Shown: positions 621-50,415, numbered from the stretch's first letter. The stretch is 52,012 nucleotides of DNA from Deltaproteobacteria bacterium (GCA_019306185.1 JAFDMD010000016.1:1-52012); one strand, 5' to 3'. The notes: a model not told the origin generated them from the letters alone. Numbers and translations are program-made.

Positions 621-666
621 AATAGTTAAAACCTATTATATTAAAATTATATAATCGTTTTATCCG

Positions 667-3600
667 TTAGTTTAACTCTTTTTTAAAAAGAGCGTTATAG
701 GCTTGTATGCAAGCAACCTCCATCGGCTTTTCTTTTAAGGACTTAAGCGCTTTGCATACCGCTAAAGCGCCCGCTATTGTGGTTGTATATGGTATTTTAA
801 ATTTTAAGGCGGCGCGTCTTATTTTAATTCCGTCCTCTTTTGAAACCCCGCCGGATGCGGTATTTATTATTAATTGTATTTCTTTGTTTTTTATAGCGTC
901 TATAAGGTTAGGTCTTTTAAAGGAGATTTTATTTACCTGTTTATTGATGATTTTTTTATTTGTAAGATAAGCCGAAGTTCCGGACGTAGCCGCTATATTG
1001 TATCCTAAATTTTTTAAATCTTTTGCTATTAGCGCCGCCGGTTCTTTGTCTTTATCATTTACGCTTATTAAAATTGTTCCTTTTAAAGGAAGGTTTTGAC
1101 CCGCCGCAAACTGAGCTTTTGCGTAAGCAAATCCCAAATCCGGGTCTATGCCCATTACTTCGCCTGTAGATTTCATTTCGGGACCTAAAACAGCGTCTGT
1201 TTTTTCAAATCTGTCAAACGGAAAAACCGCCTCTTTTACGCAATGATAGGGCGGTTTTTTCGCCTCTTTTAAATCGAGTTCTTTTAAGGTTTTTCCTATC
1301 ATAACCTTTGTCGCAAGCTTTGCAAAAGGAATGCCTGACGCTTTGCTTACAAAAGGTATTGTTCGGGAGGCTCTGGGGTTTGCTTCTAATATGTAGAGTA
1401 TATTATTTTTTACCGCATATTGAACGTTCATAAGCCCTATTACTTTAAGCTCTTTTGCCATAGCCTTAACCGAGATTTTTATCTGCTCTATTATTTTATC
1501 GCTTATCGAATAAGGGGGTATAACGCATGCGGAATCGCCGGAATGGATTCCCGCCTGTTCTATATGCTCCATTATGCCCGCGATTATTGTTGTTTTTCCG
1601 TCCGATATGGCGTCAACATCCAATTCTACGGCGTTTTCCAAAAATTTATCTATTAAAAAAACCGCTCCGGAATCTAATTCTTTTACGGTAGCCTTTAAAA
1701 AGTTTATAAGCGCTTTTTTATTATAAACTCTGTCCATTCCTCTTCCGCCCAAAACATAAGATGGTCTTACCATTACGGGATATCCTATGGTTTCGGCTAT
1801 GTTAACCGCCTCTTTAATTGTATAAGCGGTTCCGTTTTCCGGCTGTATTAACCCGAGCTTATTTAACATTTTTGCAAAAAGTTCTCTGTCTTCCGCTTGC
1901 GCTATGCTTGCGGGGCTTGTTCCCAAAACCGGAATTTTTGCCTTGCTTAAAGCGTCTGCCATATTTAAAGGGGTTTGTCCGCCGAATTGAATTATTACTC
2001 CGTCCGGTTGTTCTAATTCTATTATGTTAAATATGTCCTCTTTTGTAAGCGGTTCAAAATAAAGTTTGTCCGATGTGTCGTAATCCGTGCTTACGGTTTC
2101 GGGGTTGCTATTTATCATTATGCTTTCTATATTCTCTTCTTTTAAAGCATAAGCCGCATGAACGCAGCAATAATCAAATTCTATGCCTTGCCCGATTCTA
2201 TTAGGACCTCCGCCGAGTATTATAACTTTTTTGCAATCGTTTATTCTCGCTTCGGTCTCCTCTTGGTAGGTTGAATAATAGTATGGAGTTTTTGCCTCAA
2301 ACTCGCCCGCGCATGTGTCTATAAGTTTATATGCGGGGATAATTTTTGCTTTAAGCCTTATTTGTTTTATTTCCGCTTCCGTTTTTTTAGTAAGAAAAGC
2401 TATTTGAATGTCCGAAAAGCCTTTTTTTTTCGCCTCTTTTATAGTTTTTGCGGATATGTTTGAACCTTCCGCTTTTATTTTGGTTTCGTATTCTGCAATA
2501 TCTTTAAACTGATATAAAAACCAAGGGTCTATGCCCGTAAGCTTATATATCTCTTTTATGCTTATTTTGTTTGTTAACGCCTCTTTTAAATAGAATATTC
2601 TTTTGGAATTGGGAACCGCGAGTTTTTGTTTTATTTCGGATAAGGAGCGGGGCGTATCTTTGCCGTCGCTTCCGAAACCGCTTCTGCCGATTTCAAGGGA
2701 ACGCAAGGCTTTTTGAAAGGCTTCTTTAAATGTTCCGCCTATAGCCATTGTTTCGCCTACCGATTTCATAGACGTTGTTAAGAGGTCTTCGGCTTTGGCA
2801 AATTTTTCAAATGTCCATCTCGGTATTTTAACCGCGCAATAATCTATTGCAGGTTCAAACGATGATACTGTTTTGCCTGTTATATCGTTTTGTATTTCGT
2901 CTAACGCGTAGCCTACGGCAAGTTTCGCCGCTATTTTTGCAATAGGAAAGCCTGTGGCTTTAGAGGCGAGAGCGGAGCTTCGGGATACTCTGGGATTCAT
3001 TTCAACCACTATCATATCGGAGTTTTTAGGGTTTACCGCAAATTGAACGTTAGAGCCTCCGGTATCTACGCCTATTTCGCGTATTATGGCGATGGAGGCG
3101 TCTCGTAATTTTTGATATTGTTTATCGGATAATGTTTGGGCGGGAGCTACTGTAATGCTGTCTCCGGTATGAACTCCCATAGGGTCTATATTTTCTATGG
3201 AGCATATTATTACAGCGTTATCATTTTGGTCTCTCATTATTTCAAGCTCATATTCTTTCCATCCTAAAACCGATTCTTCTAACATAATTTGAGAAATCAT
3301 ACTTGCTTCTATGCCGGCTTTTGCAATTTTTTCCAGCTCTTCTAAGTTATAGGCAATGCCGCCGCCTTTGCCTCCCAAAGTAAAACTGGGACGCGCTATT
3401 AAAGGAAATCCGATTTCTTTTGCCGCTTCTTCGGCTTGTTGAATATTTGTAACTATTCTGCTTTTCGGAATTCTTAATCCTATTTTATTCATAGCTTTGC
3501 CGAAAAGTTCTCTGTTTTCCGCTTTTTGTATGGCTTTTAAAGAGGCGCCTATAAGTTTTACCTTGTTTTTTTCCAATACTTTGTTTTCGGAAAGTTTAAC

Positions 3601-3897
3601 CGCTACGTTAAGCGCTGTTTGCCCTCCGAGAGTCGGCAGCAGGGCGTCCGGCTTTTCTTTTTCTATGATTTTTTTTGCGGCTTCAAAGGTTACGGGCTCT
3701 ATATAGGTAAAATCGGCAAGGTCCGGGTCGGTCATTATTGTCGCGGGGTTTGAATTTAATAAAACTATTTTATAACCTTCCTCTTTTAAGGCTTTGCAAG
3801 CTTGAGTTCCGGAATAATCGAATTCGCAGGCTTGCCCTATTACTATTGGACCCGCTCCTATTATAAATATTTTTTTTATATCCTCTCTTTTCGGCAT
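667..3897 (-). CDS. carB: Carbamoyl-phosphate synthase large subunit
   Basis: 1076-aa ORF with the duplicated ATP-grasp architecture and a typical CarB N-terminus ([30 protein letters not shown]), a second half starting [24 protein letters not shown], and a C-terminal MGS-like domain. Confidence 0.97.
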
Positions 3898-4099
3898 ATT
3901 TTTAATTTATCCTTTTTGGTTTTATTAAAATTTTCCGCAGCCTTTTTTAGTTTTTTAACCTATAAATCGGAAGAATAATATATATCTTGATTTATAAAAA
4001 AAATATCATTTGATAAAGGCAATTACAATAAATAAATAAGGTAAAGGAAAAAAGATATAAAGCGGTAAATAAGTATCTATTTGTAGTTTTCCTTTTTTT

Positions 4100-4128
4100 T
4101 TGCCGTTTTTATCTGAATTTATAATAAA
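4100..4128 (+). promoter_or_regulatory. Conserved upstream motif TTGCCGTTTTTATCT[G/A]AATTTATAATAAA (copy 1, upstream of the SIR2-TPR gene)
   Basis: A 29-nt block repeated with one mismatch at 6254-6282 upstream of the NTPase gene. It contains the -35-like TTGCCG and a TATAAT element. The exact promoter register is uncertain. Confidence 0.35.
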
Positions 4129-4172
4129 AAACCGGCGAGTAATAAAAAAATATTAAATGGGATATTAAAAAA

Positions 4173-5966
4173 ATGTTAAACTCTCTTAAAATTAATGAAA
4201 TAGCCGCTTCAATTCAAAATAAAAACCTTGCGGTTTTTTGCGGGGCGGGAATATCGGTAAATTCCGGCGTTCCAAGCGTTGTAAAAATTGTAAATTATAT
4301 ATTAAGACAATTAGAGGTAGAAGAAGAGGATATAAAATCTCTTGTAAATGAAAAGAATTTAAATAGTCCGTTTAAGTTTGCTTTTGAAATGTTTATAGAG
4401 CAACTTTTGCAAGCCTGCAAAGAAAAAAGTTTATTTGAGCTGTTTGAAATTTATAATACAAAAAATCTTGAACCGAATAATAATCATATATTTTTTGCAA
4501 AGCTTGCCAAGCAAGGATTATTAAAAATTATTTTTACTACAAATTTCGATACTCTTATTGAAAAGGCTCTTAAAAAAGAGGACGTTGCATACAGAGTAAT
4601 TTATCAAAGTAAAGATTTTGAAAAGATAAATGAAGAGCCGAATAAAGTTAAAATTATAAAACTTCACGGCGATTATGGAGACGGAAGCGAGCATTATAAA
4701 AAAAGCATTGTTTCTACAATAGAAAAAATATCTCGGGAAAATCAAAAATATAAACAGGATAATTTTATAAATTATCTTTTTTCAAAAGGAAAACATAAAG
4801 AGGTTTTAATTTTAGGCTATAGCTGTTCGGATCAACTTGATATAACTCCGCAAATAGAATTAATAGATAAAAATTTAAAGCGGGTATTTTTTATTCAACA
4901 TTCGGACAATAAAGAAAAGATTGAATCTATACAAAAAGAGGAAAGCAAAAACCCTTTTGAAAAATTTAATAAGAGTCATCGAATATATTGCAATACAGAT
5001 AACATAATTTCCGCTTTATGGAAGCGGATAATAAAAGAACCTCTGCCGTTATCGGATAATAACAAGATTGAAACAAAGGAAGCAAAGCCGAACTGGCAAA
5101 AAGCAATAGAAAACTGGAAACGGAATATTCATAGTAATAATTATGTTGCCGGATGGATATTTGATGGTTTGGGGGCTTATAAGGAAGCTAAAAAATATTT
5201 TGAGAGCGCGCTTGTCATTTTTAAAAAGATATACGGAGAGGAACATCCGGAGGTGGCAAAGTATTTAAACAATATCGGCGGGGCATTGAAAGAATTAGGG
5301 GAATATAAAAAGGCAATAGAAGCTTTAGAAAAAGCGCTTGATATAGATAAAAAGGTTTACGGAGAGGAACATCTGAATGTAGCGAGAGACTTAAACAATA
5401 TCGGCGAGGCGTTAAGAGAATCAGGAGAGTATAAGAAGGGAATAGAATCTTTAGAAAAATATAAAAAGGCGATAAGCTATTATGAGAAAGCGCTTAATAT
5501 TTATAAAAAGGTTTACGGAGAGGAACATCCTGATATAGCAACAAATTTAAACAATATCGGCGCGGTATTGGAAGCATTAGGGGAATATGAAAAAGCGATA
5601 GAATTTTTAGAAAAGGCGCTTAATATTTATAAAAAGATTTACGGAGAGGAATATCCTGATATAGCAACAAACTTAAACAATATCGGCGCGGTATTAAGAA
5701 AATTAGAGAAATATGATGAGGCAATAGAATATTTAGAAAAAGCGCTTGATATAGATAAAAAGGTTTACGGAGAGGAACATCCGAATATAGCGAGAACCTT
5801 AAACAATATCGGCATGGTATGGTTTAAATTAGAGGAATATAAAGAAGCGCTTGGATATTTGGAAGAATCTTTAAAAATTTGTATGCGGTTTTTGGGAGAA
5901 AATCATCCCGATACAAAGAATGTAAAAAAAGGTATAGGCATTGTTAAACAAAAGCTTAATAATTAA
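4173..5966 (+). CDS. SIR2-like (SIR2_2 family) domain protein fused to a C-terminal kinesin-light-chain-type TPR array
   Basis: N-terminal ~300 aa carry the SIR2_2 hallmarks FCGAGISVNSGVPS, TTNFD (aa 122-126), KLHGD (aa 163-167) and GYSCSD (aa 215-220). The C-terminal half is six to seven 42-aa repeats with consensus YGEEHPxxAxxLNNIGxxLxxLGEYxKAIExLEKAL. Confidence 0.85.
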   Translation: MLNSLKINEIAASIQNKNLAVFCGAGISVNSGVPSVVKIVNYILRQLEVEEEDIKSLVNEKNLNSPFKFAFEMFIEQLLQACKEKSLFELFEIYNTKNLEPNNNHIFFAKLAKQGLLKIIFTTNFDTLIEKALKKEDVAYRVIYQSKDFEKINEEPNKVKIIKLHGDYGDGSEHYKKSIVSTIEKISRENQKYKQDNFINYLFSKGKHKEVLILGYSCSDQLDITPQIELIDKNLKRVFFIQHSDNKEKIESIQKEESKNPFEKFNKSHRIYCNTDNIISALWKRIIKEPLPLSDNNKIETKEAKPNWQKAIENWKRNIHSNNYVAGWIFDGLGAYKEAKKYFESALVIFKKIYGEEHPEVAKYLNNIGGALKELGEYKKAIEALEKALDIDKKVYGEEHLNVARDLNNIGEALRESGEYKKGIESLEKYKKAISYYEKALNIYKKVYGEEHPDIATNLNNIGAVLEALGEYEKAIEFLEKALNIYKKIYGEEYPDIATNLNNIGAVLRKLEKYDEAIEYLEKALDIDKKVYGEEHPNIARTLNNIGMVWFKLEEYKEALGYLEESLKICMRFLGENHPDTKNVKKGIGIVKQKLNN

Positions 5967-6160
5967 AAACCCTTGCGCAACCTCCTATTTTGCTTATTTT
6001 ATGCGTTATGCTTAACTTTTAATCCTCGAAATACTTTGATTATTCCTACGGTTAAAGTTTTTATGCGTCTTGAAAAGAATAAACAAAATTTTTAATAAAC
6101 GTCTTTTTAATTAAGGGATTTCTCCTCGCTACGCTCGTCGAAATGACAGGTAAAAATAAA
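5967..6160. repeat. Duplicated 3' flank (TTAATCCTCGAAATAC family element plus one GGGATTTCTCC...CGAAATGACAGG unit)
   Basis: Aligns almost base-for-base with 9209-9392, downstream of the second TPR gene. The TTAATCCTCGAAATAC part also recurs at 11271-11335. Confidence 0.85.
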
Positions 6161-6253
6161 GTCCGCCGAAATGAACATGCACAAAATAAAGCTCGTTGCA
6201 ATTAAAAAATTAAAAGCCGTTTTTTTCAACTAACGGCATTTTTCATAATTTTC

Positions 6254-6282
6254 TTGCCGTTTTTATCTAAATTTATAATAAA
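6254..6282 (+). promoter_or_regulatory. Conserved upstream motif TTGCCGTTTTTATCTAAATTTATAATAAA (copy 2, upstream of the NTPase-TPR operon)
   Basis: Same 29-nt block as 4100-4128. In both copies a further ACCGG follows, 4 nt after the block at 4132-4136 and 9 nt after it at 6291-6295. Confidence 0.35.
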
Positions 6283-6366
6283 TAGGCTTAACCGGATTTT
6301 TACAATAAAATTTGTTAACATAAAGAATAATTGCAAAAAAGCATATGAATAGAAAAGAGGTTAATT

Positions 6367-7698
6367 ATGGTTAGTAAAAAAGCTAAAACAATAGACGAAA
6401 TAGACGCGGCGGTTCAATATAAGGTTCCGGTAACGCCGGATAATATATTTTTTACCGATTTAAGCAAAGCAAGAGGAAGTTTTAAAGAGAGCAGGCTTTT
6501 AAAAAGCCTTAAACTTAACGCAAAAAAACCTTATAGAATGGTTGGAGACCCGGAGAATAAAAAGCTTATATTTCTTGCCGGAATGTACGGCAGCGGCAAA
6601 ACTTCAGAGTTAAAGAGAATTGCACAAGAGATTGAAAATCCGGAAAGTTATTTGTGTATTACATGCAGTTTGGATACGGACCTTGATATGAATAATATCG
6701 ATTTTGTAGATATTCTGATATTTATGGCGGAAGGTTTGTTAAAAAGGATGGAACAAAAAAAAATCCGGATCAATACCGATATTATAGATTCTTTAAATAG
6801 CTGGTTTACGGAAAGAATAAAAGAGACAAACAGGGTTGCGGAACATTCCGCAAAAATAGAGACCGAAATATCCGCCGGAGCGAGCTTATTAAGTTTAATA
6901 AAAATTATAGGAAGCTTAAAAAACGCGTTTGCCTATAATACATCTTATGCGGAAAAGGCAAGAGTAGTGTTTAGGGATAATTTTTCGGACCTTAAGGATA
7001 AGTTTAACGAGTTTATAGGAGAAACCGTTTTAAAGATACAAAGCAAGAAAATAGCAAAAGATATTCTTTTTATAATAGACGGAATAGAAAAGGTTCAAAC
7101 TGCAAAATTGCGTGAAAAAATAATAAAAAAGGACGGTTTAAGAATAAAGGCTATAAAAACGAATATGCTAATTACAATGCCTATAGAGCTTCATCATCAG
7201 GTAAGTAATTTGCGGGCAATAGAGCCGGAAATAATAAGGTTCCCTTTTATAAAGCTTATGGATAAAAGAACCGGCGAGCCTATAACAGAGAATATAGAAA
7301 TTTTAAAAGAATATGTATATAAGCGGGTTGATAAATCCCTTTTTGAAAATGAAGATTTGGTAAAAGATATAATTTTAACAAGCGGAGGTTCGCCTCGGGA
7401 ACTTTTGCGCATTATCAAGACTATGGGCGTAGAGCTTGACCCGGAAGCGACCGTATTGAACAGACAGGCTTTTAATGACGCGGTTAAATATTTGGGCAAT
7501 TTATATGCTACGGGCATTACGCAAGAGGAGTTTGATTTAATAAACAAGGTTGTAAACAGCAAAGGGGAAATACCTTTTAGCAAAACTTTGCAAGGGCTTT
7601 TGTCAAGGGTTATTATAATGGAATATAACGACGGAACATATAAAAAGGTTAATCCTATTATAGAGGCTTCCGCGATATACAAAAAATATGTTAATTAA
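6367..7698 (+). CDS. P-loop NTPase (KAP/STAND/AAA+-like, family unassigned)
   Basis: Walker A LAGMYGSGKTSE, a ~155-aa insertion, Walker B-like DILFIIDGIEK, and a sensor/lid-like SGGSPRELLRII followed by a helical C-terminal region. GAGG lies 8 nt upstream of the ATG. Its stop overlaps the next gene by 11 nt. Confidence 0.75.
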   Translation: MVSKKAKTIDEIDAAVQYKVPVTPDNIFFTDLSKARGSFKESRLLKSLKLNAKKPYRMVGDPENKKLIFLAGMYGSGKTSELKRIAQEIENPESYLCITCSLDTDLDMNNIDFVDILIFMAEGLLKRMEQKKIRINTDIIDSLNSWFTERIKETNRVAEHSAKIETEISAGASLLSLIKIIGSLKNAFAYNTSYAEKARVVFRDNFSDLKDKFNEFIGETVLKIQSKKIAKDILFIIDGIEKVQTAKLREKIIKKDGLRIKAIKTNMLITMPIELHHQVSNLRAIEPEIIRFPFIKLMDKRTGEPITENIEILKEYVYKRVDKSLFENEDLVKDIILTSGGSPRELLRIIKTMGVELDPEATVLNRQAFNDAVKYLGNLYATGITQEEFDLINKVVNSKGEIPFSKTLQGLLSRVIIMEYNDGTYKKVNPIIEASAIYKKYVN

Positions 7699-9208
7699 AG
7701 ATAATAAGTATAAAAAAAATCTTAACCGGCTTTTAAGAACAGTAGCAAGCGGGCTATTTGAATTTATAATATTGCGCTACAACATTACGGAACTGTTTAA
7801 CGAGGCGGTTACATCCTTAAAAAACGCTTATCCTAATAGAGAATGCAAAATATTTTCCGCAAAGGATATGGATTATAATCTGTTTATGGAAAAGGCAAGG
7901 GAGGCGGAGAGCGGGTTTTTAATAATAGAGGATTTTGAACATTTATTGGATAAGCAGGATATATACGATATAAATTATAGAAGAGACCTTATAGCGCAAA
8001 AAGATATTGCTTTAATAGTTTGCATTCCGGCAGAAGATGAACATCTTTTAAAGCTTATGAAAAAAATGCCGGATTTTTGGTCTTTTCAAAGCCTTACAAT
8101 AAAACTTACCGCTCAAATATCAAAAACCGAATCAAAACAGGATAATTTTGCCTCGGAACTTAAAGAAAACAGAAAAACCTCCTCTTTTACCTCCTTAACA
8201 ATAAGCGCAAAACTTGCGGAATTGAAAAGATTGGAAAAAAGAATTAAAGAGCCGGAAGCCCAAAAAAGCTTTAATCTTTTATCCTCCTTATACTCTCAGA
8301 TATTTACCCTTGCCGAAGAGCTTGCGGAGTATAAAAAGGGTTTGGAATATGCGAATAAATATCTTCAAATTGCAAAAGCCGCAAATAACCCTTCCGAAAT
8401 TTCAAAAGCTTTAAATAAGGCGGGAGAATTTAATATATATTTGGGTAATTATTCCAAAGGGTTAAAGTTATGCGAAAAAGCATTGAAATCGGATATTGAA
8501 AATTTAGGCAATGAGCATCCTAATACTGCAGTAAGCTTAAACAATATCGGCGGGGCATTGCAATATTTAGGCGAATATAAGCGTGCGGTAGAGCATTATG
8601 AGAAGGCGCTTGATATAGATAAGAAGGTTTACGGAGAGGAGCATCCGAACGTTGCTATTCGTTTAAGCAATATCGGCGGGTCGTTGCAATATTTAGGGGA
8701 ATATAAGCGGGCGATAGAGCATTATGAGCAAGCGCTTGATATAGATAAGAAGGTTTACGGAGAGGAACATCCGAAAGTTGCTACAAGCTTAAATAATATT
8801 GGCGGGGCGTTGCAATCTTTAGGGGAATATAAGAAAGCGATAAGGTATTATAAGCAAGCGTTTGATATAGATAAGAAGGTTTACGGAGAGGAACATCCGA
8901 AAGTTGCTACAAGCTTAAATAATATTGGCGGGGCGTTGCAATCTTTAGGGGAATATAAGAAAGCGATAGAGCATTATGAGCAAGCGCTTGATATAGATAA
9001 GAAGGTTTACGGAGAGGAACATCCGAAAGTTGCTATTCGTTTAAACAATATCGGCGTGGCGTTGCAATATTTAGGTAAATATAAAGAAGCGCTTGGATAT
9101 TGTGAAAAAGCTTTAAAAATTCGTATGCGGCTTTTGGGAGAAAATCATCCCGATACAAAGAATGTAAAAGTAGGTATAGGCATTATTAAACAAAAGCTTA
9201 ATAATTAA
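7688..9208 (+). CDS. TPR-repeat protein (unassigned ~170-aa N-terminal domain plus seven to eight kinesin-light-chain-type TPR units)
   Basis: 506-aa ORF whose ATG lies inside the last codons of the NTPase gene. The TPR consensus is the same as in 4173-5966 and the C-terminal cap is nearly identical (LGENHPDTKNVKxGIGIxKQKLNN). It contains a perfect 105-nt duplication at a 126-nt period (8738-8842 = 8864-8968). Confidence 0.85.
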   Translation: MLIKDNKYKKNLNRLLRTVASGLFEFIILRYNITELFNEAVTSLKNAYPNRECKIFSAKDMDYNLFMEKAREAESGFLIIEDFEHLLDKQDIYDINYRRDLIAQKDIALIVCIPAEDEHLLKLMKKMPDFWSFQSLTIKLTAQISKTESKQDNFASELKENRKTSSFTSLTISAKLAELKRLEKRIKEPEAQKSFNLLSSLYSQIFTLAEELAEYKKGLEYANKYLQIAKAANNPSEISKALNKAGEFNIYLGNYSKGLKLCEKALKSDIENLGNEHPNTAVSLNNIGGALQYLGEYKRAVEHYEKALDIDKKVYGEEHPNVAIRLSNIGGSLQYLGEYKRAIEHYEQALDIDKKVYGEEHPKVATSLNNIGGALQSLGEYKKAIRYYKQAFDIDKKVYGEEHPKVATSLNNIGGALQSLGEYKKAIEHYEQALDIDKKVYGEEHPKVAIRLNNIGVALQYLGKYKEALGYCEKALKIRMRLLGENHPDTKNVKVGIGIIKQKLNN

Positions 9209-9392
9209 AAACCCCTTGCGCAACCTCTTATCTTATGCATTACGCTCAAATTTTAATCCTCGAAATACTTTGCTTATTCCTACGATTAAAATTTTTATAC
9301 GCCTTGAAAAGAATAAACAAAATTTTTAAAAGCCGTTTTTTAATTCAGGGATTTCTCCTCGCTACGCTCGTCGAAATGACAGGTAAAAATAA
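9209..9392. repeat. Duplicated 3' flank (copy 2 of 5967-6160)
   Basis: Shares AAAACCC(C)TTGCGCAACCTC..TTAATCCTCGAAATACTTTG.TTATTCCTACG.TTAAA...CTTGAAAAGAATAAACAAAATTTTTAA...GGGATTTCTCCTCGCTACGCTCGTCGAAATGACAGGTAAAAATAA with the first copy. Confidence 0.85.
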
Positions 9393-15562: not shown

Positions 15563-15875
15563 TCTATACTGAAAAAGTATAATACATATTGTAATTATTA
15601 TAGATTTTAAGAAAGATAGGGTGAAATATTTGCAAGGAACTTAGTATTAATTTTAATATTTTTTTGCAAATTTTAAGAAAAAATCCTCATTATTAAAAGA
15701 TATTAATCATAAGAAATAATGATTAAATTCGGGCAAAAGATTAAAGGATAAAGGCAATAATAAAGGGATTTCTCCCTTCGGTCGAAATGACAGGCAAAAA
15801 TTACTTCCTGTTATGGCGAGACCTTTATTTTTACTTGTCATTTCGACGAGCAAAGCGAGGAGAAATCCCTTAATA
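15563..15875. repeat. Composite dispersed repeat, copy 2 (reverse orientation relative to copies at 311-620 and 50001-50308)
   Basis: Reverse complement of the ATTATACTTTTT...TTGCAAGAAAATATTAA module, followed by the unit pair GGGATTTCTCCCTTCGGTCGAAATGACAGG (15765-15794) and TGTCATTTCGACGAGCAAAGCGAGGAGAAATCCC (15837-15870). Confidence 0.8.
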
Positions 15876-50000: not shown

Positions 50001-50415
50001 TATTAAGGGATTTCTCCTCGCTTTGCTCGTCGAAATGACAAGCAAAAATAACTTATGTTAAATTTCCCCTGTCATTTCGAACCGAAGGGAGAAATCTCTT
50101 TATTATTGACTTCTGCCTTTATCCTTTAACCTTTTGTACGAATTTAATCATTATTTTTTATGATTAAATTTTTTTTAATACCGGGCGTTTCCTCTTAATA
50201 TTTGCAAGAAAATATTAAAATCAATATTAATTCCTTGCAAATATATTACCTTATTTTTTTTAAAATTTATAATAATTACAATATGTATTATACTTTTCCA
50301 GTATTGACTACTTACTCGCTTTTTATTAAGTGGTTTCTCCTCGCTGCGCCCGTCGAAATAAATGACAGGGACGATTCGGCATGTCATTGCAAATTATAGT
50401 AACTTTTCTATATTT
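50001..50415. repeat. Composite dispersed repeat, copy 4 (most complete: unit pair, ~110-bp module, extra unit and CAAATTATAGTAACTT tail)
   Basis: 50001-50308 aligns with 311-620 in the same orientation. 50331-50415 aligns with 16271-16500. Confidence 0.85.

What the first reader, a model, noticed from the sequence alone, without database searches (positions are those of the whole stretch)
4100..9208. SIR2-TPR effector beside a translationally coupled P-loop NTPase + TPR pair: candidate three-gene NAD-targeting conflict/defence module (STAND-type modules on three separate proteins)
Seen in sequence: 4173-5966 encodes a SIR2_2-type domain with every hallmark motif, fused to six to seven kinesin-light-chain-type TPR units. 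The motifs are GAGIS, TTNFD with the Asn at aa 124, KLHGD with the His at aa 165, and GYSCSD. About 400 bp downstream on the same strand, 6367-7698 encodes a P-loop NTPase with Walker A GMYGSGKTSE, a ~155-aa insert, Walker B DILFIIDGIEK and SGGSPRELLRII. Its stop overlaps by 11 nt the start of 7688-9208, a protein with an unassignable ~170-aa N-domain and seven to eight TPR units of the same subtype. Established knowledge: SIR2_2 domains retaining these Asn/His residues are NAD+-consuming effectors in Thoeris ThsA, DSR1/DSR2, SIR2-HerA and SIR2-STAND (Avs-like) systems. STAND immune proteins are effector-NTPase-TPR fusions. Inference: the same three modules are spread here over three polypeptides, and the matching TPR arrays could mediate assembly or sense the same ligand. 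I do not recognise this gene arrangement as a named system. The flanks are housekeeping genes (carB; thioesterase/hom), so this is a compact accessory islet.
Basis: partly seen in the sequence, partly recalled or inferred. Interest (0 to 1): 0.85.

Follow-up and report, generated by a model that had tools for sequence, protein, structure and literature searches.

The report
SIR2-TPR gene beside AAA+/TPR pair
A predicted NAD-destroying defence gene sits next to a widespread ATPase + repeat-protein gene pair of unknown function; the two are independent modules everywhere else, but here the defence gene carries copies of the pair's promoter and repeat tail.

Summary
g2+g3 is a deeply conserved two-gene unit. 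The partner is present in 78 of 86 loci (the rest are truncated or degraded), and the same 11-nt overlap occurs in 47 of 78. No SIR2 gene, swapped effector or recurrent third gene accompanies it, and its neighbours are housekeeping genes. g1 belongs to a separate SIR2-TPR single-gene family (at least 368 metagenomic relatives, catalytic Asn/His invariant), sometimes found among defence genes. None of 85 such loci has a g2 or g3 homologue. The closest relative (a Desulfobacterales MAG) has carB-g2-g3 at the same site without g1. The window carries a 2,154-bp indel bracketed by a ~43-nt duplicated promoter-like box. g1's last ~700 coding nt plus ~190 nt of 3' flank are a colinear copy of g3's (78.6% overall, 93% at the 3' end), and its SIR2 part is unusually AT-rich. 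g2 models confidently as an ORC/Cdc6-like AAA+ with NACHT-like Walker B, a GxP-like motif and a C-terminal winged helix. The g3 N-domain is unassignable. Best reading: a stand-alone DSR-like NADase next to a split, effector-less STAND-like module. Functional coupling is possible but unproven.

The parts
4086..4128 (+). Promoter-like box, copy 1 (TTGCCG 4100-4105, 17-nt spacer, TATAAT 4120-4125), upstream of g1; left boundary of the 2,154-bp indel
   Evidence: 34-nt direct repeat, 94% identical to 6249-6282. The 26-nt core occurs only twice in the window, against 0 expected. L007 has one copy that aligns to both.
4173..5132 (+). g1 N-terminal part: SIR2_2 NADase-type domain plus linker (aa 1-320); N124 and H165 are the catalytic pair
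   Evidence: Pfam SIR2_2 6.2e-17. PADLOC PDC-S65 3.7e-22 and ThsA 1.7e-17. PDB KomC 2.5e-11 and ThsA 4e-7, with H165 aligned to KomC H146. Motifs invariant in 27 sequences. GC 29.1% and GC3 24%, the lowest in the locus.
5133..5966 (+). g1 C-terminal TPR array (about 6.5 units of 42 aa, kinesin-light-chain/TPR_12 type)
   Evidence: TPR_12 3e-77. 126-nt periodic repeat family. 62% aa identity to the g3 array.
5265..6159 (+). Copy 1 of the colinear duplicated tract (last ~700 nt of the g1 CDS plus ~190 nt of 3' flank)
   Evidence: Single 900-nt blastn alignment to 8537-9392 at 78.6%. Identity reaches 93% in the last 100 coding nt and 90% in the flank, and homology ends near 6163. The ~150 nt after the stop codon are shared only by these two copies.
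6216..6244 (+). Hairpin GCCGTT-N10-AACGGC followed by a T-run: terminator-like end of the g1 transcription unit
   Evidence: Read directly from the sequence. Not listed by the scanner because its loop exceeds 8 nt. Inference only.
6240..6282 (+). Promoter-like box, copy 2 (TTGCCG 6254-6259, TATAAT 6274-6279), upstream of g2-g3; right boundary of the indel
6367..7698 (+). g2: AAA+ NTPase. N-terminal conserved region, P-loop core with a ~100-aa helical insert, lid with GGSPRELLR, C-terminal winged helix with the EYNDGTYK hairpin
   Evidence: AF2 pLDDT 89, pTM 0.87. Foldseek Cdc6 1fnn 9e-6, PAB2304, Orc1/Cdc6, TnsC, RdrA. Family of 1,422 50%-identity clusters. 42 invariant columns in 59 sequences.
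7688..7698 (+). 11-nt overlap of the g2 stop with the g3 start (translational coupling)
   Evidence: The same -11 overlap occurs in 47 of 78 homologous loci.
7688..8323 (+). g3 N-terminal part: ~135-aa conserved alpha/beta domain of unknown fold family (motifs FRFIIVRYNH-like, LNxRRDxLA, MPDxWSF) plus a variable, probably disordered linker
   Evidence: Found downstream of g2 in 78 of 86 loci. Alignment A3. No Pfam or PDB relative. Not related to g2. The single-sequence model is low confidence but shows a four-strand beta-alpha pattern.
8324..9208 (+). g3 C-terminal TPR array (about 7 units)
   Evidence: TPR_12 1.5e-103. Model pLDDT above 90 over aa 220-480.
8537..9392 (+). Copy 2 of the colinear duplicated tract (g3 3' CDS plus flank)
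6115..6150 (+). Core of a dispersed ~55-nt genomic repeat, included in the duplicated flank (second local copy at 9348-9383)
   Evidence: 4 copies in the window, 0 expected. Only the core is shared with the copies at 15.8 kb and 50.0 kb.

Best explanation
The region holds two modules that are evolutionarily independent, brought together by one local rearrangement. Module A (g1) is a stand-alone SIR2-TPR protein of a DSR-like single-gene family. Inferred mechanism: the TPR array binds a trigger, most likely a phage protein. This relieves autoinhibition or drives oligomerisation of the SIR2 domain, which hydrolyses NAD+ through N124/H165 and aborts the infection. Module B (g2-g3) is a widespread, translationally coupled pair. 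g2 is a minimal NOD-like AAA+ ATPase (P-loop core with a helical insert, lid, winged helix; ORC/Cdc6-like fold with a NACHT-like DGxE Walker B and a GxP-like GGSPR motif). g3 is a TPR sensor protein whose novel N-terminal alpha/beta domain is inferred to dock onto g2. Together they form a 'split STAND' ATP-dependent switch with no recognisable effector and an unknown output. In this lineage g1 lies between carB and g2 on a 2,154-bp segment bracketed by a duplicated promoter box. g1's TPR tail and 3' flank were copied from, or converted by, g3. g1 is therefore probably co-expressed with the pair and may sense a similar ligand, but it does not need the pair to work.
For: Shown:
- The ORFs and motifs are as described.
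- The g2+g3 pair is found in 78 of 86 loci across Bacteroidota, Chlorobiota, methanotrophs, Desulfobacterales, Brocadiaceae and Gemmatimonadota, with the -11 overlap in 47 of 78.
- No SIR2 occurs in those loci, by phmmer or profile HMM. No recurrent third gene exists. No other effector-TPR lies nearby. Partner proteins are N-domain plus TPR only.
- SIR2-TPR is a family of its own: 41 indexed hits and at least 368 metagenomic relatives. g2 and g3-N are absent from 85 of its loci. Defence genes are among its neighbours: ThsB, HamA, pAgo, methylase/Vsr/HNH.
- L007 has carB-g2-g3 without g1, and the indel boundaries fall on the duplicated box.
- The g1/g3 tract is colinear and runs into non-coding flank. 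The SIR2 part has the lowest GC in the locus.
- The g2 fold is confidently modelled.
- KomC and ThsA are the nearest solved SIR2 structures.
- Published precedent: the Avs7 and Dsr1 TPR sensors are shared and sense the same capsid protein (PMC12803255).

Inferred: NADase activity, trigger binding by the TPRs, docking of g3-N onto g2, and co-regulation through the box.
Against: - No experiment or structure supports any activity here.
- The pair's neighbours are mostly housekeeping genes, with no defence-island signal. The pair is absent from phages and nearly absent from plasmids. Its assignment to conflict or surveillance therefore rests on architecture alone.
- Foldseek ranks ORC/Cdc6, TnsC and RdrA above any STAND protein.
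- The duplicated promoter and shared TPR tail could reflect genuine functional integration of g1 with g2-g3, which this explanation treats as unnecessary.
- The direction of the indel (insertion here or deletion in L007) is not resolved.
Confidence: 0.6

Rival explanations
1. Integrated three-gene system. g2-g3 is an effector-less sensor/switch, and in this lineage it has recruited g1 as its effector arm. g1 received the pair's promoter and a copy of g3's TPR array, so it is co-expressed. It either co-assembles with g3/g2 through the matching TPRs or binds the same trigger, which couples ATP-dependent sensing to NAD+ depletion.
For: - Same strand, adjacent, with an identical 26-nt promoter-like core found only at these two places.
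- The colinear g3-derived TPR tail and flank in g1 are most similar at the 3' end, 93% there and 90% in the flank. That exceeds the 86-88% orthologous identity to L007, which suggests a recent, lineage-specific event.
- The pair has no effector of its own anywhere.
- Sensor sharing between an NTPase system and a SIR2 protein is documented for Avs7 and Dsr1.
Against: - Co-localisation occurs in 0 of 171 other loci.
- The closest relative keeps g2-g3 without g1.
- SIR2-TPR orthologues occur alone.
- No swapped effectors are seen beside the pair.
- g1 has its own terminator-like hairpin, so it is a separate transcription unit.
- Recombination between adjacent, similar TPR repeats is expected without any selection for it.
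Confidence: 0.2
2. The g2-g3 pair is not an immune module. It is a cellular regulatory or DNA-associated ATPase-adaptor pair, for example a winged-helix AAA+ acting on DNA like ORC/Cdc6 or TnsC with a TPR scaffold partner. g1 is an unrelated defence gene that landed beside it.
For: - The top structural matches are Cdc6/Orc1, PAB2304, TnsC and RuvB, and g2 has a C-terminal winged helix.
- The neighbours are housekeeping genes.
- The family is absent from phages and almost absent from plasmids.
- No effector domain is present in any member.
- Core motifs are very strongly conserved.
Against: - The phyletic distribution is patchy, contexts are non-syntenic, and some genomes hold several copies.
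- TPR arrays vary greatly in length, from 300 to 1,005 aa.
- Walker B is NACHT-like (DGxE) and the GGSPR motif is GxP-like.
- There is consistent remote similarity to the validated defence protein DS-41 (46 of 59 members) and to mad8.
These traits are typical of accessory, immune-receptor-like genes.
Confidence: 0.3
3. g1 is a non-functional by-product of a local duplication or recombination event, that is, a chimeric pseudogene in the making.
For: It has a chimeric make-up, is unique to this lineage, and its exact protein is not found in public assemblies.
Against: The 597-aa ORF is intact. All 24 family-invariant residues, including the catalytic N124 and H165, are retained. It has its own promoter-like box, leader and terminator-like hairpin. 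The full SIR2-TPR architecture matches its orthologues.
Confidence: 0.07

Closest known systems
Defence-associated sirtuins DSR1/DSR2 (single-protein SIR2 + helical-repeat sensor NADases)
   Same: g1 has an N-terminal SIR2 domain with the catalytic Asn/His, a C-terminal alpha-helical repeat sensor, no NTPase, and single-gene occurrence, sometimes among defence genes. The Dsr1 sensor is described as TPR repeats (PMC12803255).
   Different: g1 is half the size or less (597 aa against about 1,000-1,300). The NCBIfam Dsr1 score is 28.6 bits against a cut-off of 1,400, and the PADLOC Dsr1 E-value is only 2e-4. Its TPRs are short, regular TPR_12 units. No experimental data exist for this family.
Thoeris ThsA and Kongming KomC SIR2 NADases
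   Same: These are the nearest solved SIR2 domains by sequence (KomC 2.5e-11, ThsA 4e-7). Motifs are shared, and g1 H165 aligns to KomC H146. PADLOC ThsA scores 1.7e-17.
   Different: g1 has no SLOG/STALD nucleotide-sensing domain and no ThsB/TIR or KomA/KomB partner. It carries TPRs instead, so it is presumably activated by a protein ligand, not a nucleotide signal.
STAND/Avs (AVAST) antiviral NTPases, including SIR2-STAND Avs5
   Same: Taken over the three genes, the logic is effector + NTPase + TPR sensor. g2 has a P-loop, a NACHT-like DGxE Walker B, a GxP-like GGSPR motif in the lid and a winged helix, which is the NBD-HD1-WHD order. There are weak Pfam hits to NACHT, NPHP3_N and NB-ARC.
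   Different: The modules lie on separate polypeptides. All STAND Pfam hits fall below threshold. Foldseek prefers ORC/Cdc6, TnsC and RdrA, and the first STAND hit is at rank 44. The conserved unit has no effector at all, and SIR2 does not co-occur with it.
Archaeal Cdc6/Orc1 and PAB2304-type (Pfam ATPase_2) AAA+ proteins; TnsC; RADAR RdrA
   Same: These are the best structural matches to g2: an AAA+ base, lid and winged helix (RdrA additionally has a helical insert in the ATPase).
   Different: TM-scores are only about 0.3-0.4 with 10-14% identity. g2 has its own conserved N-terminal region, a ~100-aa helical insert, and an obligate TPR partner gene.
DS-41 ('AAA2', DefensePredictor-validated single-gene system) and MADS mad8
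   Same: There is consistent remote similarity to the g2 family (DS41_1 in 46 of 59 members, best 8.5e-10; mad8 in 26 of 59). DS-41 is experimentally defensive in E. coli (PMC13092281).
   Different: Scores are far below the family cut-off (29.9 against 370 bits) and confined to the P-loop region. DS-41 is a single gene without a TPR partner.

Membership tests
SIR2_2 defence-type NADase domain | Pfam SIR2_2 match above the gathering threshold | tested here: met
   62.5 bits against a cut-off of 24.5, E 6.2e-17.
SIR2_2 defence-type NADase domain | Catalytic Asn and His and the GAGxS Rossmann motif are retained | tested here: met
   G24, A25, G26, S28, N124, H165 and G215-Y-S-x-S-D220 are invariant in 27 family members. 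H165 aligns with KomC H146, the residue mutated in PDB 9xvc.
SIR2_2 defence-type NADase domain | NAD+ hydrolysis activity | not testable with these tools
   Needs a biochemical assay.
DSR1 / DSR2 | Family-level sequence match (NCBIfam Dsr1 equivalog, PADLOC Dsr1) | tested here: not met
   NCBIfam Dsr1 scores 28.6 bits against a cut-off of 1,400. PADLOC Dsr1 E is 2e-4, over the SIR2 region only.
DSR1 / DSR2 | Architecture: SIR2 plus a C-terminal helical-repeat sensor in one protein, functioning as a single gene | tested here: met
   The architecture is met. Orthologues occur without a conserved partner. Single-gene function itself was not tested.
Thoeris | ThsA SIR2 fused to SLOG/STALD, with an adjacent ThsB (TIR) gene | tested here: not met
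   g1 has no SLOG domain and the window has no TIR gene in the locus. ThsB was seen next to only one distant relative.
STAND NTPase (NACHT / NB-ARC / Avs) | Pfam NACHT, NB-ARC or AAA_16 match above threshold | tested here: not met
   NACHT 18.6 bits (cut-off 26.7), NPHP3_N 16.4 (24.8), NB-ARC 12.6 (23.5).
STAND NTPase (NACHT / NB-ARC / Avs) | NBD-HD1-WHD order with a GxP motif in HD1 and an acidic Walker B | tested here: inconclusive
   GGSPR (G340-R344 invariant) and LFIIDGxE are present, and the model ends in a winged-helix-like hairpin. The same layout fits ORC/Cdc6, which Foldseek ranks first; the first STAND protein is at rank 44.
STAND NTPase (NACHT / NB-ARC / Avs) | Repeat sensor, and usually the effector, fused to the NTPase in one polypeptide | tested here: not met
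   The TPRs are on a separate, translationally coupled protein in all 78 loci. No effector is present.
KAP P-loop NTPase | Insert between Walker A and B that contains transmembrane helices; Pfam KAP_NTPase match | tested here: not met
   The window protein has no KAP_NTPase hit, and only 3 of 120 listed homologues carry PF07693. The insert is a soluble helical bundle in the model. The best viral fold hit named KAP has TM 0.28.
Proposed three-gene SIR2 + NTPase + TPR system | The three genes, or the pair plus an alternative effector, co-localise in other genomes | tested here: not met
   0 of 86 g2 loci have SIR2 and 0 of 85 SIR2-TPR loci have g2 or g3-N. No swapped effector-TPR genes are seen. 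The nearest relative lacks g1.
g2-g3 conserved pair (unnamed family) | A g2-type ATPase directly followed on the same strand by a protein with the g3-type N-domain plus TPRs, with a stop/start overlap | tested here: met
   The window has the 11-nt overlap. The same arrangement is found in 78 of 86 loci, with -11 in 47 of them.

The most novel reading that the evidence does not exclude
The window captures effector recruitment in progress. A widespread, effector-less 'split STAND' sensor (AAA+ g2 + TPR g3) has acquired a SIR2 NADase arm. A foreign SIR2(-TPR) gene was fused to a copy of g3's own TPR sensor tail and placed under a duplicate of the pair's promoter. The three proteins would then act as one NAD-depleting immune system in this lineage only.
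Probability: 0.2. Interest if true: 0.7.

Novelty: new variant of a known kind. Interest (0 to 1): 0.45.

Why it matters
There are three points of value.

1. It defines a large, unnamed, strongly conserved two-gene family: 1,422 clusters at 50% identity, across several phyla. The family combines an ORC/Cdc6-like AAA+ carrying STAND-like motifs with a TPR protein that has a novel N-terminal domain. The two are always translationally coupled and never have an effector. This is a clean target for functional study of how NTPase and sensor modules work when split.

2. It identifies a compact SIR2-TPR family (about 550-1,100 aa) as a likely minimal DSR-like NADase sensor.

3. The locus is a natural, datable example of a sensor tail and a promoter being copied between an NTPase-based module and a SIR2 effector. 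This is the process inferred at deep evolutionary distance for Avs7 and Dsr1.

It also corrects the record: the evidence does not support a conserved three-gene system.

Tried and rejected
- The word-indexed homologue search with the g3 N-domain returned nothing. Homologues were recovered from loci downstream of g2 instead.
The single-sequence model is unreliable for residues 1-215, so I did not use it for a fold search.
- Profile searches of g3-N against the PDB and Pfam gave only noise.
- The hhalign test of g3-N as a degenerate copy of the g2 ATPase was negative, with probability below 1%.
- The PDB sequence-profile search with g2 gave only marginal hits (9zll 0.023, BrxC-BrxB 0.39), which I did not rely on.
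- I considered that the shared 3' flank was an independent insertion of a mobile repeat. I rejected this because only a ~55-nt core is dispersed, while ~150 nt are unique to the two copies and continuous with the coding homology.
- I considered an ABC-like gene as a recurrent third partner (10 loci). I rejected it because it lies at varied distances and orientations.
- Rfam found nothing in the locus.
- The exact g1 protein is not in public assemblies, and P0001's contig was too short to polarise the indel.
- Literature searches for 'PDC-S65' and 'SIR2-TPR' found no papers.


Full report
**1. Observation**

The g2 stop overlaps the g3 start by 11 nt.

- Pfam finds SIR2_2 (E 6.2e-17) plus TPR_12/TPR_10 in g1. 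It finds only sub-threshold P-loop hits in g2 (AAA_14, NACHT, NPHP3_N, NB-ARC). In g3 it finds TPR_12 (1.5e-103) and nothing in the first ~200 residues.
- All quoted motifs are present.
- The flanks are carB, a 4HBT thioesterase, homoserine dehydrogenase and an aminotransferase.

**2.

- A 34-nt direct repeat (94% identical) lies upstream of g1 (4095-4128) and g2 (6249-6282). Its core reads TTGCCG-N17-TATAAT and occurs nowhere else in the window.
- The 3' end of g1 and the 3' end of g3 form a single colinear 900-nt alignment (5265-6159 against 8537-9392, 78.6%). It runs about 190 nt past both stop codons.
- Identity along this tract peaks at 93% in the last 100 coding nt and 90% in the flank, and homology stops near 6163.
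- Only a ~55-nt core of that flank is a dispersed genomic repeat (four copies in the window). The ~150 nt between the stop codon and that core are unique to these two copies. This is therefore a local segmental duplication or gene conversion, and not two insertions of a mobile element.

**3. The conserved unit is g2+g3, not three genes**

- g2 belongs to a large family: 1,422 50%-identity clusters at E<=1e-3. It is about 40% identical across Bacteroidota, Chlorobiota, methanotrophs, Desulfobacterales, Brocadiaceae and Gemmatimonadota.
- 42 columns are invariant in 59 sequences. They include the Walker A residues G72/G75/G77/K78 (GMYGSGKT), D238/G239/E241 (LFIIDGxE), G340-R344 (GGSPR) and a C-terminal EYNxG motif.
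- In 86 fetched loci, a protein with the g3-type N-domain lies directly downstream of g2 in 78. The remaining loci are cut by contig ends or degraded. The junction is the same 11-nt overlap in 47 of 78.
- No SIR2 homologue is present in any of these loci, by phmmer or by a family HMM.
- No third gene family recurs, and no other effector-TPR gene sits beside the pair.
- Partner proteins of 300-1,005 aa consist of the N-domain plus TPRs only.
- 146 flanking genes are dominated by metabolic and housekeeping families, with only scattered defence hits.
- The family is absent from phage genomes and nearly absent from plasmids.

**4. g1 belongs to a separate family**

- The SIR2 domain retrieves a family of SIR2_2+TPR proteins: 41 indexed hits at 30-47% identity, and at least 368 metagenomic relatives.
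- GAGxS, TNFD (N124), KxHG (H165) and GYSxSD are invariant in 27 aligned members.
- The nearest solved structures by sequence are the defence NADases KomC (2.5e-11, with g1 H165 aligned to KomC H146) and ThsA.
- The best PADLOC hits are the candidate PDC-S65 and ThsA. Dsr1 models score far below threshold.
- In 85 loci of this family (718 kb), profile HMMs of g2 and g3-N find nothing at E<=1.
- Some members lie among defence genes: methylases, Vsr, HNH and PD-(D/E)XK in L091, and ThsB, HamA, pAgo and caspase among neighbours elsewhere.

**5. The closest relative**

- L007 is a Desulfobacterales MAG with g2 82% identical. It has carB, a ~320-nt spacer, g2 and g3, but no g1.
- blastn maps L007 371-3850 to window 651-4128, and L007 3808-6092 to window 6240-8524.
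- The window therefore carries a 2,154-bp segment (g1 plus its 3' flank) bracketed by a ~43-nt duplication of the promoter-like box. L007 has one box that joins the window's left flank to the g2 leader.
- A GCCGTT-N10-AACGGC hairpin with a T-run at 6216-6244 precedes box 2, so g1 looks like its own transcription unit.
- The SIR2-coding part of g1 has the lowest GC in the locus: 29.1% (GC3 24%), against 33.8% for its TPR part, 34.7% for g2 and 35.9% for the window. This is consistent with a chimeric gene made of a foreign SIR2 part and a locally derived or converted TPR tail.
- g1's TPRs resemble g3's (308 bits) much more than those of its closest orthologue (about 125 bits). Most orthologues carry a different TPR flavour.
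- The direction of the indel is not settled. Identity of 90-93% at the tract's 3' end, against 86-88% orthologous identity to L007, weakly favours a recent event in the window lineage.

**6. Nature of g2 and g3**

- With a 59-sequence alignment, g2 models at pLDDT 89 and pTM 0.87. The model shows a P-loop alpha/beta core interrupted by a helical bundle (about residues 102-226), a helical lid carrying GGSPRELLR, and a C-terminal helical domain that ends in a beta-hairpin.
- Foldseek's best PDB hits are Cdc6 (1fnn, 9e-6), PAB2304, Orc1/Cdc6, TnsC, RADAR RdrA and RuvB. The first STAND protein (NRC2) is at rank 44.
- Motif inspection shows a NACHT-like DGxE Walker B and a GxP-like GGSPR. That comparison rests on my knowledge of STAND motifs and is not a test run here.
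- g2 is best described as a minimal NOD-like, ORC/Cdc6-like AAA+ module.
- Family members show consistent but far sub-threshold similarity to DS41_1 (46 of 59) and mad8 (26 of 59). DS-41 is a validated single-gene AAA system in E. coli (PMC13092281).
- The g3 N-domain (~135 aa) has the conserved motifs FRFIIVRYNH, GFFxIENF, LNxRRDxLA and MPDLWSFRS.
- It has no Pfam or PDB relative and is unrelated to g2. It shows a four-strand beta-alpha pattern in a low-confidence single-sequence model. Its role as the adaptor that docks onto g2 is an inference from the obligate coupling.

**7. Mechanism**

- Most likely (confidence 0.6): g1 is a self-contained DSR-like NADase. Its TPR array senses a protein trigger and releases SIR2 activity, which depletes NAD+ and aborts infection.
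- g2-g3 is a split ATP-dependent TPR-sensor switch whose output is unknown.
- The adjacency arose from one rearrangement that also gave g1 a copy of the pair's promoter and sensor tail. g1 is therefore probably co-expressed and may share ligand specificity, as published for the Avs7 and Dsr1 sensors (PMC12803255).
- Rivals are: true three-protein integration in this lineage (0.2); the pair being a non-immune DNA-associated or regulatory ATPase pair (0.3, compatible with the independence of g1); and g1 being a dead chimera (0.07).

**8. Novelty and score**

- No named system matches.
- g1 is a new, compact member or variant of the SIR2-plus-repeat-sensor kind. The g2-g3 pair is an uncharacterised split variant of NTPase-TPR sensors.
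- The proposed conserved three-gene system is not supported.
- Interest is 0.45. The headline claim falls. What remains is a widespread, unnamed, tightly coupled pair and a clear local case of sensor and promoter copying onto a SIR2 effector.

Noticed in passing
window 6115-6150 (+), 9348-9383 (+), 15834-15869 (-), 50007-50042 (+): A dispersed ~55-nt repeat (…GGGATTTCTCCTCGCT[AC/TT]GCTCGTCGAAATGACA…). At 15.8 kb and 50.0 kb it pairs with an inverted partner about 40 nt away to form a long hairpin (RNA MFE -36.8 kcal/mol, z = -5.6). The two copies after g1 and g3 have one arm only. There is no Rfam match. It may be a REP/MITE-like element or a structured RNA.
   Followed up: partly
L015:13004-13531, L028:12881-13408, L069:13054-13587: A ~176-aa ORF family lies close downstream of the AAA+/TPR pair in three Bacteroidota loci (two labelled Prolixibacteraceae, one Bacteroidales). 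Three of the 146 scanned neighbour genes match the Macro domain (ADP-ribose binding/hydrolysis), and these ORFs are probably those three. This is probably one lineage-specific arrangement, but it is notable given the NAD/ADP-ribose theme.
   Followed up: no
L051 + L075 (same MAG, CAZDVQ01); L050 + L085 (same MAG, JAXHNU01): Some genomes carry two copies of the g2-g3 pair, and one copy (L085) is degraded. The paralogues differ in TPR array length.
   Followed up: no
L087:332-1246: The closest SIR2-TPR orthologue (47% identity) sits directly downstream of a Y1 (IS200-like) transposase fused to a DnaA_C HTH. A Y1_Tnp gene also lies about 1.3 kb upstream of the pair in Bernardetia (L005:6262-6729).
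   Followed up: no
L088:8001-17111: Another SIR2-TPR orthologue (38%) lies within about 5 kb of a (split) carB gene. Between them are an unrelated AAA_22 ATPase and a separate 265-aa TPR protein that is very similar to g3's TPRs (2e-47). There is no g2 or g3-N homologue. The recurrence near carB may be coincidence.
   Followed up: partly
window 4001-5000: This is the lowest-GC coding stretch examined in the locus (26-27% in 500-nt windows; 29.1% over the SIR2 part, GC3 24%). It suggests the SIR2 portion of g1 was acquired horizontally.
   Followed up: yes
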